IMG/VR virus record: IMGVR_UViG_3300022932_000014
Coordinates: 93,638-143,127 of that record
Origin: a virus
Strand: one strand, 5' to 3'
Length of the DNA: 49,490 nt
In this document: positions 2,815 through 12,106 of the stretch, one piece after another
Layout: each line of letters opens with the position of its first letter
Position numbering within the stretch: the stretch's first letter is position 1
Program-made: the position numbers and the translations under genes
The notes under the pieces: generated by a model
Told to the model about the DNA's origin: nothing
The model's input: the letters and a program-made list of their open reading frames with translations, nothing else
The model's database searches: none

Positions 2815-4505
2815 AATTTTTACAAAAACCTCAGTTAGAATTTCTTAAAGATGGTTACTTAGAGCCAGGTGAAACAGCAAATGAACGGTTCTCAGCTATT
2901 ATTAAAAGAGTTAAACACTATGAACCTCTTTATTCAGAAGGACTAGCAGAGAGACTTTCTTACATGATTGAAAAGAATATATTAAGTTTATCCACACCAG
3001 CAATAGCTAACTTTGGGCGAGAAAAAAAAGATACAGCAAATACCACTAATCTCCCAGCATCATGTAATATAATTACAGTGGGAGACTCTATATCAGACAT
3101 ATATAATTCCATTGCACAAGTAGCCATGCTTTCTAAATTAGGCGCAGGAGTAGGCTCTGATTTTCAAATGGTGGCACAAAAAGATACAAAACTTAGAGAA
3201 GGGTTTTATTCTAATTCAAAACTAGATTGGATAGAAGATTCTGTGAGAACGGCTCAAAAAGTTAGTCAATCCAGTACCCGAAGAGGTTATAATACTCCTT
3301 TTATATCTATAGATGATAATGATTTTGAAGAGTTATTAAAAAGAGTTGATAAAACAAACCCAGATAAAAATGATCCTTTAGTAAACAACACTATAGGTAT
3401 TATTTTACCTGAAGGATTTTGGGAAAGACTTAGAAATAAAGATGAAAAATTACAAGATAGGTGGCTGAAAGTTTTAAAATTCAGACAAAAAGTTGGTAAG
3501 ATTTATCTAGGTGATGTAGAGAACATGAATAAAAACAGTTCTCCTGTGTATAAAAAATTGGGTTTAAAAGTAGCTACAACTAATATTTGCACAGAATTTT
3601 TACAGCCTTTATTTACAGACATGACTTCCGTTTGTGTGATATCCGCTTTAAATTTGATATATTGGGATGAAATTAAGGAAAACCCGCAAATGATTAAGGA
3701 TGCTTTCATGTTCTTAGATATTTTAAATGAGGAGTATATACTTTTAAGTAAAGGAGTACCTTTCTTAGAGAAAGCTAGAAAAGCTGCAAAAAACAAGAGA
3801 GATGTAGGATTAGGTACATTAGGTTTTCACGAACTCTTACAACTTAAAAATTATAGTTTTGGAGATATCTACAGTAGAAAATTAAATAAGGAAATATACT
3901 CTACAATTAGAAAGTACGGAGAAGAGATTACTTACGAAATGGGAGGTAAGTTAGGTTCTCCCCAATTAGCAAAAGAAGCAGGTATGCAACGTAGAAACTG
4001 TTCTCTTATGATGATTGCTCCAAATAAGTCGACTTCTTTTATTTCTGGTGCAACTTCCTTAGGAATTGAGCCTTTTATGAGTAATGTGTTTGTAAAGACA
4101 TTGGCTAAAATACAATATGTTTTTAAAAACCCGCACTTAGAAAAATTATTAGAGAGAAAAGACAAAAACACAAAGGAGGTTTGGGAGAGTATTGAAGATA
4201 ATAATGGATCAGTGCAACATTTAGAATTTTTAGAAGATTTTGAAAAAGATATTTTTAAAACCTTTTCTGAAATATCTCCGAAAGATATAATTGATTTGGC
4301 AGCCGACAGACAAGAATTTATAGATATGGGGCAAAGTCTAAATCTAGTCTTTAGAAAGAACTATACAATTAAAGACTTACACGAGATTCATAAATATGCT
4401 TTTGAAAAAGGATTAAAAACTCTGTATTACGCTTACCCTTCAGCACATGCTTCTTTAGAAAAAGAGGGAGAGAAATGGGACACTTGTTCTATGTGTGCAG
4501 ATTAA
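2805..4505 (+). CDS. nrdA: ribonucleotide reductase class I alpha subunit, short, no ATP cone
   Basis: ASCN, TNICTE (NxCxE finger loop), APNKSTS, GIEP, GLKTLYY, C-terminal CSMC. Confidence 0.95.
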   Translation: MELKFLQKPQLEFLKDGYLEPGETANERFSAIIKRVKHYEPLYSEGLAERLSYMIEKNILSLSTPAIANFGREKKDTANTTNLPASCNIITVGDSISDIYNSIAQVAMLSKLGAGVGSDFQMVAQKDTKLREGFYSNSKLDWIEDSVRTAQKVSQSSTRRGYNTPFISIDDNDFEELLKRVDKTNPDKNDPLVNNTIGIILPEGFWERLRNKDEKLQDRWLKVLKFRQKVGKIYLGDVENMNKNSSPVYKKLGLKVATTNICTEFLQPLFTDMTSVCVISALNLIYWDEIKENPQMIKDAFMFLDILNEEYILLSKGVPFLEKARKAAKNKRDVGLGTLGFHELLQLKNYSFGDIYSRKLNKEIYSTIRKYGEEITYEMGGKLGSPQLAKEAGMQRRNCSLMMIAPNKSTSFISGATSLGIEPFMSNVFVKTLAKIQYVFKNPHLEKLLERKDKNTKEVWESIEDNNGSVQHLEFLEDFEKDIFKTFSEISPKDIIDLAADRQEFIDMGQSLNLVFRKNYTIKDLHEIHKYAFEKGLKTLYYAYPSAHASLEKEGEKWDTCSMCAD

Positions 4506-8913: not shown

Positions 8914-10023
8914 ATGATTAGATCCTCGAAAGAAACCACGAAAGAAACTTTTAAAAATATCAAAGATGGTCAATCGGGAGTTTATAAACCGTTAAAGACT
9001 AGATTCGCACATTTAAATGATATATGTCACGGAGGATTAACTAAGCAAAAAATTTACTCACTTGGCGCATTATCAAGCTTCGGTAAAAGCCATGTACTCA
9101 GACAAATAGAGGCCGACATATTTGATGAGAAACTAAATCCAGGAGCAAAAGAAACAGTTGTTTTATGTAAAGTGGATTGGGAGATGAATAAAGAGGAAAT
9201 GGTTCTGGCCAGAGTTCATGAAAAAACTGGAAAACCATATGACTACTTAATGTTTGAGACTCCAGATGAAGAAACTAAAAAAGCTTTTAATGAAGTTTAT
9301 TTAGAATTAGAATCTGATCATATTTTTGAAACTTTTGACACTTATAAACCTGATAAATTTTATGAGGATGTTAGAGCTTTCACAGATCAACATCAGGATA
9401 AAAAACAAATTGTTTTAACTATTGATAATATAAATTTAGTGGACACTGAGAATTCAGATGAATCTAAAGCAATTGCTCGGTTAATTACTCACATTATTAA
9501 ATTAAAAAGAGAGGTCAAAAACTTAACTGTACTGATCCTTTGTCAATTAAATCGCGATCTCAAGGAAAGGCTTTTAAATCCAAAAGAACATTTTCCACGA
9601 ACAACCGATTTCTATTATAGTTCTAAAATAGAGCACGCTTCAGATGTACAGATAGTTTTACACAATCCTTTCTTACTTGGTATAGATGAGTATGGAGCAG
9701 TTAATACAGAACGATACGCTTATTTAGATAAATATTTGGTTCCTAAAAATAAGTACTCCTGTTTTAAAACGCAGGGATTAGTATTCTTCCATTATGTTAA
9801 AGTACGTCTTAAAAACGGATTGAAGGATTTTAGGGATTTATATATTGAAGAAGTGTATAAACCAGACGAAGCTAAAGATAACACACCGAAACCAAGTTTT
9901 TCTACAACTACATTACCATCATTCAATACTGTTGATTTCACTGTAGAGAAGCCGTTACCTCAGATTTCACTTAATGATGCTTTTGGAGTTTCTAATAAAG
10001 ATGATTCAAATTCTCCTTTTTAA
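8914..10023 (+). CDS. DnaB-like (SF4) replicative helicase
   Basis: Walker A GALSSFGKS, DWEM, Walker B LTIDNI, H3 motif LCQLNR, D-F-YYSSKIEHASD. Confidence 0.88.
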   Translation: MIRSSKETTKETFKNIKDGQSGVYKPLKTRFAHLNDICHGGLTKQKIYSLGALSSFGKSHVLRQIEADIFDEKLNPGAKETVVLCKVDWEMNKEEMVLARVHEKTGKPYDYLMFETPDEETKKAFNEVYLELESDHIFETFDTYKPDKFYEDVRAFTDQHQDKKQIVLTIDNINLVDTENSDESKAIARLITHIIKLKREVKNLTVLILCQLNRDLKERLLNPKEHFPRTTDFYYSSKIEHASDVQIVLHNPFLLGIDEYGAVNTERYAYLDKYLVPKNKYSCFKTQGLVFFHYVKVRLKNGLKDFRDLYIEEVYKPDEAKDNTPKPSFSTTTLPSFNTVDFTVEKPLPQISLNDAFGVSNKDDSNSPF

Positions 10024-10060
10024 ACTTTTTTCGCGCGAAAACAAACTAAAAAATAAAACT

Positions 10061-10291
10061 ATGAAAAAATTACTATTACTAATAACACTACTTTCAGTAC
10101 TATCTTGTAAAAAAGCAGTTACACTCGAAGAAAGTAAGATTGACATTCAAAAAGAAAAAGTAATCAGGATCAATGGCAGGGAATGGTATTTGACAACTGC
10201 CTCTGATGGACATGAGTATATTGATAATTCAGGTTATCATGATTATATGTGCATGCATTATGTAGACTGTAAAAAATGTGCTAAAAATTAA
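10061..10291 (+). CDS. putative lipoprotein
   Basis: start re-set to ATG 10061: MKKLLLLITLLSVLSC lipobox; C-terminal HxxxCxxC. Confidence 0.7.
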   Translation: MKKLLLLITLLSVLSCKKAVTLEESKIDIQKEKVIRINGREWYLTTASDGHEYIDNSGYHDYMCMHYVDCKKCAKN

Positions 10292-10316
10292 ATACAGACA
10301 ATTAAAATAAAACATT

Positions 10317-10517
10317 ATGTACACACTAACAAACGAAGAACTAGAGCAGTTTCTAATAGAAACAGATTCCTTTTATGATTGCCCAGATGAAGATTCTAAA
10401 CAAAGAATGAGGGATTCATATAGAAAGGTAGAAGCAGAAAGTAATCAGCAGATAGTTGAAGCTGGAGGTTTTACAAAATGGTATGAGAGTGGGAGAGGTA
10501 GATTATTAAGTATCTAA
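10317..10517 (+). CDS. hypothetical protein
   Basis: ORF. Confidence 0.65.
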   Translation: MYTLTNEELEQFLIETDSFYDCPDEDSKQRMRDSYRKVEAESNQQIVEAGGFTKWYESGRGRLLSI

Positions 10518-10680: not shown

Positions 10681-10847
10681 AATACATACAACTAAAAACA
10701 AAAGAACAGTTTAAAGAAACAATGACTCAGTATAACAGTAAATGGAAGTTATATATGTGGGATTATTTTAAAGAGAATACATGTTATATTCCAGATGAAA
10801 ATTGTTTTATAAGTTTAGATAAAGCTATTCCACTTTTCGGGAATTAA
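10677..10847 (+). CDS. hypothetical protein (56 aa)
   Basis: read by hand: MKYIQLKTKEQF...WDYFKENTCY. Confidence 0.55.
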   Translation: MKYIQLKTKEQFKETMTQYNSKWKLYMWDYFKENTCYIPDENCFISLDKAIPLFGN

Positions 10848-10928
10848 ATTGATTATTACATATTTTTAGTTTAACTGTGTTTTTATTTCTTTTCCGCCGA
10901 AATTAAGGCTTACTCTAAAATTAAGTTG

Positions 10929-10960
10929 TTTGGTGAATGGGTATTATTTTTGTATATTTA
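10929..10960 (+). promoter_or_regulatory. promoter driving non-coding region
   Basis: TTTG 10929-10932, 20-nt spacer, TATATTTA 10953-10960 (variant -7 box). Confidence 0.6.
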
Positions 10961-10984
10961 CAGCTTTAAAATACGAAATACGCA

Positions 10985-11106
10985 GATTTTATCCTTCACC
11001 TCTAAAATCGTCTAAAATAATAAGATAATCTCTTAGCAATAAAGACTAATAGAATGAGAAGTGTGAAGGCTCCTTATCTATTAGTCTTTTGCGTTAGGAG
11101 ATTTTT
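10985..11106 (+). promoter_or_regulatory. two-hairpin kissing-loop leader (copy 1)
   Basis: hairpin 1 GATTTTA/TAAAATC with loop CCTTCAC 10993-10999; hairpin 2 with 13-bp perfect stem 11041-11053/11077-11089 and loop GTGAAGG 11063-11069; T tract. Confidence 0.65.
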
Positions 11107-11118
11107 GTATTTTTAAAT

Positions 11119-11425
11119 AGGCGGTACAGAAGTGTATCACATCCTAGAGAGCGAAAGTTAGTATAGGATCAGAAGTCGGGTTGTAATTCTCAAATAGAGA
11201 ATGAGTTGTCCCCGATAGCCGAAAAAATTGCTTATATATAAGTTAGTGGGTACATTTAGACAAGATACGATGAAATGGGTAAATCTTGCAGTACGTTAGG
11301 TGAACGAGGAAATAATACACCCTCAACGAACGGCACTTAGCTAAAGTTATAAGTTAAAATCGCCACTAAGTGATTGGATGGTCAAGGGACGTAAAAGTTC
11401 TTAAAGGGGATTCTTATGCTCGAAA
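11119..11425 (+). ncRNA. candidate structured non-coding RNA of unknown class
   Basis: no ORF in track; about 38% GC by hand count of 11161-11400; at least 8 helices including a GAAA tetraloop and multiple G-U pairs. Confidence 0.55.
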
Positions 11426-11680
11426 ATTACTTTATTAATTGTATTATTATTTACTTCTTGTGCTTTACTTTTTTGGCGGAATAATTAAAATAACTGTTTT
11501 TGACATTCTTTACCTACAGAGTTTCCGCCGCTATAATTAATAGCACATATTTATTTAACAGTTTTGCCAATCTTCGCGCGTAAAAGAGTAAAGAACAGTT
11601 GAAAAAAGAAACGGAAGTTAATATAAAGTCACTGTTAGAAGCCCTAATTATACCCAATTTAAAAATAATTTCAAATTTAA

Positions 11681-11711
11681 TTAGGATATATAAAAATAAT
11701 GATTACATTTG
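11681..11711 (+). promoter_or_regulatory. promoter
   Basis: TACATTTG 11704-11711; degenerate -33 (TTAG). Confidence 0.55.
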
Positions 11712-11731
11712 TAAAATAAAATAATAAAAAT

Positions 11732-12106
11732 ATGAAAGAAAGATTAATAAATTTTAAAACAGCAAAATTAGCTGATAAGAAAGGTTCTGGTAAAATTCAC
11801 TTTATATCTCACGATAATTTTTCGTTTATTAGAGGTGAAAAAGAATATAAAAGGCCATCTCAATCCTTGCTTCAAAAATGGCTCAGAGATGAATTTAATA
11901 TTATAGTTGAGGCTATCTCTCATTACGACTCCACACAATTACCCCTTTCAAAAACAAATATAGTAAAACCTATTGGATGGTTTGCTTGGAATTATTATGA
12001 TAATAATTTTTCACCAGAACAAGCACCTAAGTTCAGTACTTATGAAAAAGCACTGGAGTTCGGATTACAAGAAGGATTGAAATTAATTCAGACAAAAGAA
12101 AATTAA
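11732..12106 (+). CDS. hypothetical protein, paralog family A
   Basis: TAKLA..KG, QSLLQKWLRD, YEKALEFGL motifs shared with 12593 and 15200 ORFs. Confidence 0.8.
   Translation: MKERLINFKTAKLADKKGSGKIHFISHDNFSFIRGEKEYKRPSQSLLQKWLRDEFNIIVEAISHYDSTQLPLSKTNIVKPIGWFAWNYYDNNFSPEQAPKFSTYEKALEFGLQEGLKLIQTKEN

What the first reader, a model, noticed from the sequence alone, without database searches (positions are those of the whole stretch)
11119..11425. Candidate ~300-nt multi-domain ncRNA in the largest gene-free island
Seen: no ORF in the track; about 38% GC by hand count (11161-11400) versus roughly 17-27% in sampled flanking lines. Helices: GGTACA/TGTATC (11123-11138); ATCCTA/TAGGAT enclosing AGC-GAAA-GTT (11141-11169); TCGGG/CCCGA enclosing ATTCTC/GAGAAT (11176-11215). 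These three are closed by GGC/GCC (11120/11220) into a four-way junction. Further helices: GCTTAT/ATAAGT (11230-11243), CAAGAT/ATCTTG (11261-11288), CGTT/AACG enclosing GAGG/CCTC (11294-11332), CACTTAG/CTAAGTG (11334-11372) and AGGGAC/GTTCTT (11385-11402). These are possibly closed by GGGTA/TGCTC (11248/11421). G-U pairs and the GNRA loop favour the + strand, matching the promoter at 10929-10960 and the kissing-loop leader. Inference: a functional phage RNA, such as a ribozyme-like, protein-sponge or replication-priming transcript. It does not look like tRNA, tmRNA or a group I core to me.
Basis: partly seen in the sequence, partly recalled or inferred. Interest (0 to 1): 0.8.

Follow-up and report, generated by a model that had tools for sequence, protein, structure and literature searches.

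The report
New structured RNA in uncultured phages
The gene-free island holds a real, evolutionarily conserved folded RNA of about 310 nucleotides that matches no described RNA family, sits behind a promoter and leader that in related phages drive a protein gene, and has an unknown job.

Summary
The finding holds. Window 11119-11422 (+ strand) is non-coding in four genetic codes and matches no Rfam family, tRNA or tmRNA. Its single-sequence folding energy is no better than shuffles (z = -0.5). Comparative evidence decides the case. I found nine further copies in uncultured-phage contigs. They fall into three sequence types that are 79-95% identical, with large insertions only at hairpin tips. 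In a two-domain fold of 59 base pairs, 98% of cells pair. Twenty-six pairs show compensatory double changes, against 0-2 in slid controls. Three of its 3' helices are confirmed, one is replaced by a long-range pairing, and three are not supported. Fifty-seven G-U cells place the structure on the + strand. The RNA is single-copy. It was not found in one complete and two partial related phage records, nor in 151 Bacteroidota genomes. It lies behind a conserved promoter and structured leader that in other phages precede a 274-aa winged-helix protein gene. It is followed by a roughly 235-nt non-coding block that is about 97% identical in seven of eight aligned copies. My best reading is a new accessory phage RNA gene acting in trans. 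A role in priming a replication origin is not excluded. Expression could not be tested.

The parts
10880..10969 (+). Conserved promoter-like region with a TAttTTTG box at 10945-10952. It is shared by every RNA-bearing contig and by the protein-cassette contigs L008 and L065.
   Evidence: An nhmmer profile of this region hits all RNA loci plus L008 and L065. Alignment A1. The box is listed. Promoter function is inferred, not shown.
10960..11118 (+). Structured leader. It has a small hairpin (10985-91/11003-09) and a long imperfect hairpin (about 11016-11114) that ends in a U-rich run just before the RNA. The same architecture, with different sequence, precedes the 274-aa gene in L008, L064 and L065.
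   Evidence: Inverted repeat I1. Folds and shuffle z-scores of -2.6 to -6.2 for leaders of RNA-bearing copies, and -1.4 for L008. Leader sequences of L064 and L065. One compensatory T-A to C-G change and several wobble changes between the window and L011, seen by eye in A1.
11119..11221 (+). 5' domain, a four-way junction. P1 is 11120-22/11218-20. P2 is 11123-28/11133-38, with an invariant GAAG loop. P3 is 11141-46/11164-69, with tip AGC-GAAA-GUU in this type. P4 is 11176-80/11211-15, with inner stem 11186-91/11197-202.
   Evidence: Model R2 was built from type A only and finds types B and C at 34-40 bits. It has 20 pairs: 97.9% of cells pair and 10 pairs have changes on both sides, against 0-2 in slid controls. 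Insertions of 30-92 nt fall in the tips of P3 and P4 only.
11230..11422 (+). 3' domain.
- P5, long-range: 11230-36/11348-54
- Pb: 11246-48/11334-36
- Pc: 11250-53/11291-94
- P6: 11259 plus 11261-66 with 11283-89, loop with invariant UGAAA.GGGUA
- P7: 11306-09/11321-24
- Pd: 11362-65/11379-82
- P9: 11385-90/11397-402, invariant GUAAAA loop
- P10: 11406-09/11419-22, weak

Invariant unpaired stretches are UAGGUG, ACG.ACGGC, AAAUCGC and AAAGGGG.
   Evidence: RNAalifold on 8 sequences. Model R1 was built from types A and B and finds type C at 132-135 bits. It has 39 pairs: 98.9% of cells pair and 16 pairs have double changes, against 0-2 in slid controls. Within type A, T-A in the window becomes C-G in L032 at 11247/11335.
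11426..11660 (+). Highly conserved non-coding block that follows the RNA in every copy. It holds an inverted repeat UGGCGGAA/UUCCGCCG (11474-81/11523-30) and four AAC(A/T)GTT-like motifs. A sigma-70-like TTTACC-17-TATAAT lies at 11509-37. It may be a 3' extension of the RNA or a DNA-level regulatory or origin element.
   Evidence: About 97% identical in 7 of 8 aligned copies, while the RNA domains differ by 5-21%. L032 has a type A RNA but a block only roughly 78% identical, as judged from the alignment. One-base indels rule out a shared reading frame. Wobble and compensatory variants occur at 11474/11530, 11480/11524 and 11512-13/11580-81. Overall covariation is weak.

Best explanation
Window 11119-11422 encodes a previously undescribed structured non-coding RNA on the + strand.

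Structure. It has two domains joined by an A-rich linker. The first is a four-way junction of about 100 nt. The second is a multi-branched domain of about 190 nt. Helices are kept by compensatory changes. Loop and junction bases are invariant. Peripheral hairpin tips grow and shrink freely. That is the signature of an RNA that must reach one defined three-dimensional shape.

Expression (inferred). It is probably transcribed from the conserved promoter at about 10945. The transcript would run through a structured leader whose long hairpin and U-run may serve as a processing or attenuation site.

Cassette. The RNA occupies an exchangeable slot 1-2 kb downstream of the DnaB-type helicase gene. 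In other phages the same promoter and leader drive a 274-aa winged-helix protein gene.

Function (inferred). I read it as an accessory phage gene whose product is the RNA itself. It most likely acts in trans by binding a protein or small ligand, or by self-assembly, early or mid infection.

My odds: genuine structured RNA, about 0.85. Trans-acting accessory product rather than an origin or cis element, about 0.5. A specific decoy or sponge role in phage-host conflict, about 0.25. The confidence value given for this explanation (0.6) is for the statement as a whole: a real structured RNA gene that works as an accessory trans-acting product.
For: Shown by tools:
- Non-coding in every code tried and in every homolog.
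- Nine other copies in three sequence types.
- 59 modelled pairs are 98-99% paired, and 26 have changes on both sides, against 0-2 in slid controls.
- An unbiased scan of all column pairs ranks six of the model's helices (P6, P9, P3, Pc, P2, P4) first.
- Models built from a subset of the types recover the other types.
- 57 G-U cells place the fold on the + strand, which is also the strand of all neighbouring genes.
- Insertions fall only at hairpin tips.
- No Rfam family, tRNA or tmRNA matches.
- There is a single copy in the genome.
- It was not found in a complete related phage genome or in two partial related records. It was not found in 151 Bacteroidota genomes.
- The same promoter region precedes the 274-aa ORF in L008 and L065, and the same leader architecture precedes it in L008, L064 and L065.

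Inferred: transcription, trans action and a binding function.
Against: Single-sequence folding energy is no better than shuffles. The conserved fold scores -48 kcal/mol, or -61 when completed, against an MFE of -67.5.

Only three sequence types exist, with seven distinct sequences among the eight aligned copies. The compensatory changes therefore reflect few independent events.

The alignments used for counting were fitted to the model. RNAalifold on a plain MAFFT alignment gives the same 3' helices.

The hairpin plus U-run directly upstream could be a terminator, which would leave the RNA without a proven promoter.

The adjacent conserved block and the position in the replication module are also compatible with an origin function.
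Confidence: 0.6

Rival explanations
1. It is an origin-of-replication module. The structured transcript runs into the conserved block at 11426-11660. There it forms a persistent RNA-DNA hybrid or is processed into a leading-strand primer, as with ColE1 RNA II or the T4 oriF and oriG transcripts. The block would supply the unwinding and protein-binding sites.
For: The island lies in the replication module, about 1.1 kb downstream of the DnaB-like helicase gene. The RNA is always followed by the conserved non-coding block. That block has A/T-rich strand-asymmetric stretches, an inverted repeat and four AAC(A/T)GTT motifs. The alternative occupant of the slot has a weakly predicted winged-helix DNA-binding domain, and that protein is repeatedly linked to DnaB. 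An earlier first-stage note read the island as an origin.
Against: A complete related phage with a 70%-identical helicase lacks both the RNA and an equivalent block. Partial related records also showed neither, and they are weaker evidence. An essential origin would be expected to persist.

Cumulative GC skew turns at about 54 kb and 124 kb, not at the island at 104.7 kb. This is weak evidence, because skew follows gene strand.

L032 combines a type A RNA with a divergent block, so the two parts are separable.

The 274-aa family is absent from this genome. It occurs elsewhere in a sibling genome that also carries the RNA. There is therefore no simple initiator-for-RNA swap.
Confidence: 0.17
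2. It is a cis-acting leader, of riboswitch or attenuator type, that senses a ligand or protein and controls transcription into the downstream genes.
For: The architecture resembles large aptamers, with invariant junctions and variable tips. It lies upstream of genes on the same strand.
Against: The downstream genes differ between copies. They are a phrog_12005 protein here, a Dam-type methyltransferase in L056, and unrelated small ORFs in L057 and L010-L012. About 300 nt separate the RNA from the next start codon, and a conserved TAcaTTTG box lies at 11704-11. No terminator-like expression platform was found.
Confidence: 0.07
3. The structure forms in single-stranded DNA and serves as a priming or initiation signal, like the ssi and sso signals of small phages and plasmids.
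For: Covariation shows only that one strand must fold, and G-T pairs are tolerated in DNA. GCGAAAG-type mini-hairpins are known to be very stable in DNA (my own knowledge). The island sits in the replication module.
Against: A two-domain fold of 300 nt and 59 pairs, with multi-way junctions and many invariant unpaired bases, is far larger than known ssDNA signals (my own knowledge). It lies behind a conserved promoter and leader that elsewhere drive an mRNA. About 19% of 3' domain pairs are G-U.
Confidence: 0.04
4. It is a decayed protein gene or otherwise functionless spacer.
For: Single-sequence folding energy equals that of shuffles. The slot holds a protein gene in relatives.
Against: There is no similarity to the 274-aa protein in any frame. 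No stop-free frame is shared among homologs, and indels are not multiples of three. Substitutions are paired across helices rather than codon-periodic.
Confidence: 0.02

Closest known systems
GOLLD and ROOL RNAs (large ornate non-coding RNAs often carried by phages and prophages; in Rfam)
   Same: Long, multi-junction RNAs that are carried by phages, dispensable for close relatives, of unknown biochemical function, and recognised through covariation. A paper held in the library reports that GOLLD and ROOL form RNA-only multimeric assemblies (bioRxiv 10.1101/2024.12.08.627333, abstract seen).
   Different: No sequence or structure match to any Rfam model. The core here is smaller, about 310 nt. 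No tRNA genes were found anywhere in the window. The hosts and habitat differ. Self-assembly was not tested.
phi29-family pRNA (packaging RNA)
   Same: A phage-encoded, multi-helix RNA that is transcribed early from its own promoter. Its structure is conserved while its sequence drifts, and it works as an RNA product in trans (my own knowledge).
   Different: pRNA is essential and universal in its phage group, and it lies at a genome end. This RNA was not found in one complete and two partial related phage records, and it lies in the replication module. There is no match to the Rfam pRNA model.
ColE1 RNA II and phage T4 oriF/oriG origin transcripts
   Same: A promoter-driven structured transcript that runs into a conserved non-coding DNA segment next to replication genes.
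   Different: No antisense regulator, hybrid-forming G/C tract pair or RNase H site could be identified. The element is absent from relatives that must still replicate. There is no skew inflection at the island.
Large riboswitch aptamers such as cobalamin
   Same: Four-way junction cores, invariant junction bases and variable peripheral stems.
   Different: No Rfam match. There is no conserved downstream gene and no expression platform.

Membership tests
Any Rfam 15 family | Score at or above the family's gathering threshold, or at least a suggestive E-value. | tested here: not met
   There were 0 hits at gathering scores over the whole window. With E up to 10, no hit falls within 11132-11425, and the hits elsewhere in 10800-11750 are 14-21 bits against thresholds of 39-176. 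Nothing hits the RNA in loci that carry types A, B and C.
tRNA / tmRNA | Cloverleaf with acceptor, D, anticodon and T arms, or a tRNA-like domain plus a tag reading frame. | tested here: not met
   ARAGORN finds no gene in the window. The junction spacings of the four-way junction (0, 2, 6 and 2 nt) and its arm lengths do not fit a cloverleaf, read from the R2 structure.
Group I intron | P3-P9 core that matches the intron model, inserted in a host gene whose exons join into one frame. | tested here: not met
   No Intron_gpI hit even at E up to 10. The flanks are a non-coding leader and a non-coding block, not exons.
GOLLD / ROOL / OLE / raiA / HEARO large RNAs | Match to the respective covariance model. 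| tested here: not met
   All of these are Rfam families, and none matched.
RNA-primed origin (ColE1 RNA II type) | The transcript forms a persistent hybrid at the origin and is cut to a primer. The origin is essential in cis. | not testable with these tools
   Only indirect evidence is available. The element was not found in related phage records, and there is no skew turn at the island.
Structured non-coding RNA (generic criterion) | Base pairs kept by compensatory substitutions in homologs, above phylogenetic and positional controls. | tested here: met
   26 of 59 pairs have changes on both sides and 98-99% of cells pair, against 0-2 pairs and 30-49% of cells in slid controls. An unbiased column-pair scan ranks six of the model's helices first.
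Structured non-coding RNA (generic criterion) | Existence of the transcript. | not testable with these tools

The most novel reading that the evidence does not exclude
The roughly 310-nt core, together with the structured leader and the conserved block, forms one ornate phage RNA of about 700 nt (10960-11660). It would have an activity of its own: catalysis, or self-assembly into an RNA-only particle. It would be deployed as an exchangeable accessory cassette in place of a DNA-binding protein. That would make it a new functional class of phage RNA, not merely a new family.
Probability: 0.12. Interest if true: 0.9.

Novelty: new variant of a known kind. Interest (0 to 1): 0.66.

Why it matters
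Few large, intricately folded RNAs are known outside the translation and processing machinery. Those carried by phages, such as GOLLD and ROOL, remain functionally unexplained.

This candidate is compact and well defined. It has a testable two-domain fold and a clear genomic logic: an RNA cassette that sits where related phages carry a protein gene under the same promoter and leader. If it is expressed, it is a tractable system for asking what phages use ornate RNAs for.

It also shows that single-sequence folding energy can miss such RNAs entirely. Here the z-score was -0.5.

Tried and rejected
- Alternative genetic codes (table 4, TAG=Q, TAA=Q) give no credible ORF.
- The island is not a decayed copy of the 274-aa gene: tblastn finds nothing.
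- BLASTN against GenBank phages finds no match. The closest cultured phage DNA polymerase is at most 36% identical.
- The two relatives found through the helicase (L002, L003) have no homolog of the island.
- Looser pattern scans of viral contigs and of the genome collection gave only chance hits. An nhmmer check was negative.
- A scan for the block alone found no new context.
- Contigs carrying more distant homologs of the 66-aa neighbour protein, at 72-77% identity, lack the RNA or are too short to show it.
- Model R1 was not found in 151 Bacteroidota genomes. That run had no positive control.
- The structure of the 274-aa protein gave only weak matches to MarR-like winged-helix domains (E of 4e-3 or weaker, pTM 0.53) and no function.
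- The TTCCGCC 'dispersed motif' occurs 27 times in the genome. It lies mostly antisense to the coding strand and inside genes, so it may reflect coding-strand composition rather than a set of sites.
- By-eye resemblances to the hairpin ribozyme, the sarcin-ricin loop, the B12 box and the tetraloop receptor were dropped. The bases involved are not conserved across the three types, and Rfam gives no hit.

Full report
**Setting**

The window is bases 93638-143127 of a 143,127-bp IMG/VR phage record with 30.6% GC. The finding lies in an 885-nt gap without ORFs (10848-11731). The gap sits about 0.8 kb downstream of a DnaB-like helicase gene (8914-10023) and among small + strand genes. The phage has no close cultured relative: its DNA polymerase is at most 36% identical to any GenBank phage.

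**Checking the observation on the sequence alone**

GC is raised to 35-37% over 11075-11374, against 18-32% in the flanks. No ORF appears under table 11, table 4, TAG=Q or TAA=Q. Rfam gives nothing at gathering thresholds and nothing over the finding at E up to 10. ARAGORN finds no tRNA or tmRNA.

The minimum free energy of 11119-11425 is -67.5 kcal/mol, with z = -0.51 against dinucleotide shuffles. The reverse strand gives z = -0.54.

**Homologs**

- BLASTN against GenBank phages finds nothing.
- Two IMG/VR relatives reached through the helicase (80% and 70% amino-acid identity) have no counterpart of the island.
- The 66-aa protein at 10317-10517 led to three IMG/VR contigs in which the island is conserved at 79-87% nucleotide identity.
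- One metagenome pattern scan, built from invariant loop and junction bases, added four more contigs.
- Exact-protein look-ups added two more, one from ENA and one from Logan.
- Looser patterns, and a scan of 185,579 prokaryote genomes, gave only chance matches.

The copies fall into three sequence types:

| Type | Copies |
|---|---|
| A | window, L034 (same sequence as L056), L032 |
| B | L033, L036, L057 |
| C | L031, L037, L035 |

**The structure**

RNAalifold on a plain MAFFT alignment of the 3' half predicts 37 pairs, 15 of them with compensatory double changes. The count on that alignment is 97.7% of cells paired and 16 pairs with double changes, against 0-2 in slid controls.

I built covariance model R1 for the 3' domain from types A and B. 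I built R2 for the 5' four-way junction from type A alone. R1 finds the unseen type C at 132-135 bits. R2 finds the unseen types B and C at 34-40 bits.

| Domain | Pairs | Cells paired | Pairs with changes on both sides | Same measure in slid controls | Cells paired in slid controls |
|---|---|---|---|---|---|
| 3' domain | 39 | 98.9% | 16 | 0-2 | 30-49% |
| 5' domain | 20 | 97.9% | 10 | 0-2 | 35-47% |

A scan of every column pair, made without reference to the model, ranks P6, P9, P3, Pc, P2 and P4 first, with 2-5 double changes each. Everything else has at most one.

Two closely related type A copies differ by a compensatory T-A to C-G change, 88 nt apart, at 11247/11335. Insertions of 30-92 nt in types B and C fall only in the tips of P3, P4 and Pd. 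Fifty-seven G-U cells would be mismatches on the other strand, where pairing falls to 81% and 91%.

No stop-free frame is shared among the types, and indels are not multiples of three. This rejects the decayed-gene reading.

The four-way junction (P1-P4, 11120-11220) is confirmed helix for helix. CAAGAT/ATCTTG and AGGGAC/GTTCTT are confirmed. GAGG/CCTC is confirmed in types A and B, and type C has a different short hairpin there.

The local GCTTAT/ATAAGT hairpin is better replaced by a long-range helix, 11230-36/11348-54, which closes a multi-branch loop. CACTTAG/CTAAGTG, CGTT/AACG and the closing GGGTA/TGCTC are broken in homologs. Covarying helices Pb, Pc and Pd take their place.

The conserved fold scores -48 kcal/mol, or -61 when completed, against the MFE of -67.5. 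This explains the uninformative z-score.

**Context**

The RNA is single-copy in the genome. It was not found in the complete 131-kb relative G002, in two partial relatives, or in 151 sampled Bacteroidota genomes.

Upstream lies a conserved promoter-like region of about 90 nt (10880-10969). After it comes a leader with a small hairpin, a long imperfect hairpin and a U-run.

In L008 the syntenic slot holds a 274-aa ORF instead of the RNA. That ORF lies behind the same promoter region and shares the first 60-70 nt of leader with the type B copies. In L064 and L065 the same protein family again lies 1-2 kb downstream of a DnaB gene, behind a leader of the same architecture.

The protein belongs to no Pfam or PHROG family. 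Its N-terminal part is weakly predicted to be a MarR-like winged helix. It is absent from this genome. It is present elsewhere in a sibling genome that also carries the RNA, and in G002, which does not. So both occupants are accessory, and neither simply substitutes for the other.

The genes downstream of the RNA differ from copy to copy. This argues against a gene-specific cis-regulator.

**The downstream block**

Window 11426-11660 is about 97% identical in seven of the eight aligned copies, although the RNA domains differ by up to 21%. One-base indels exclude a shared reading frame.

L032 combines a type A RNA with a block only roughly 78% identical, as judged from the alignment. The two parts therefore recombine independently.

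Some variants fit RNA pairing. UGGCGGAA/UUCCGCCG shows U-G, U-A and C-G at its closing pair. Positions 11512-13/11580-81 show four compatible combinations. Overall covariation in the block is weak.

The block also carries four AAC(A/T)GTT motifs and a sigma-70-like hexamer pair. I leave open whether it is a 3' extension of the RNA, a regulatory region or an origin.

**Interpretation**

It is shown that a + strand fold of two domains is under selection. It is inferred that the fold forms in RNA, that the RNA is made from the promoter at about 10945, and that it acts in trans.

The cassette logic is that the same promoter and leader drive either a protein gene or this RNA. Together with the RNA's absence from the related phage records searched, this makes an accessory RNA gene product the best reading.

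The origin-primer reading draws on the replication-module position and the conserved block. Against it stand the element's dispensability in relatives, the lack of a skew turn and the separability of RNA and block. I give it about 0.17. Cis-regulatory, single-stranded-DNA and decayed-gene readings rank lower.

**Comparison with known systems**

No described family matches. In kind it is closest to the large ornate phage-borne RNAs GOLLD and ROOL, and by analogy to phi29 pRNA. I file it as a new family within the known kind 'structured phage non-coding RNA of unknown function'.

Another first-stage reader noted the same stretch as a candidate origin. The scan holds no note of this RNA on other DNA.

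Noticed in passing
window 11426-11660: A non-coding block that is about 97% identical in 7 of 8 aligned copies, while the adjacent RNA differs by 5-21%. L032 carries a divergent version (roughly 78% identical). It holds the inverted repeat GGCGGAA/TTCCGCC, four AAC(A/T)GTT motifs and a TTTACC-17-TATAAT hexamer pair. It could be a regulatory region, an origin or the 3' part of the RNA.
   Followed up: partly
window 10960-11118; L008 2870-3046; L064 and L065 about 3300-3500: A conserved 5' leader architecture: a small hairpin (AGAUUUUAUCC...AAAAUC), a long imperfect hairpin and a U-run directly before the cargo. It precedes either the RNA or the start codon of the 274-aa gene in different phages. 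It may be an attenuator or an RNase III-type processing site.
   Followed up: partly
L008 3047-3871; homologs P0001-P0012; L064 and L065 3501-4337: An unannotated family of proteins, 273-295 aa long, with a weakly predicted N-terminal MarR-like winged helix. In the contigs examined it lies 1-2 kb downstream of a phage DnaB helicase gene. It is absent from this genome and present at other positions in two related genomes.
   Followed up: partly
window 8914-10517 versus L010, L011, L012: Sharp mosaicism. The helicase is only 27-36% identical in amino acids to those of the RNA-bearing relatives. The small proteins next to it are far more conserved: 10317-10517 at 89-98%, and 9974-10291 at 96% in L012. 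Recombination breakpoints therefore lie within 100-300 nt.
   Followed up: no
whole genome (27 sites); window 6427, 8742, 10892, 11475, 11523 and others: TTCCGCC is about tenfold over-represented in the window: 11 observed against 0.9 expected. In the whole genome most copies lie inside genes and antisense to the coding strand, so GGCGGAA sits on the coding strand. The enrichment may therefore be compositional rather than a set of binding sites.
   Followed up: partly
genome about 54 kb and about 124 kb (window about 30.5-31.7 kb): Cumulative GC skew has its minimum near 54 kb and its maximum near 124 kb. Both coincide with switches of gene strand. These are the only skew-based candidates for replication or transcription boundaries.
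   Followed up: no
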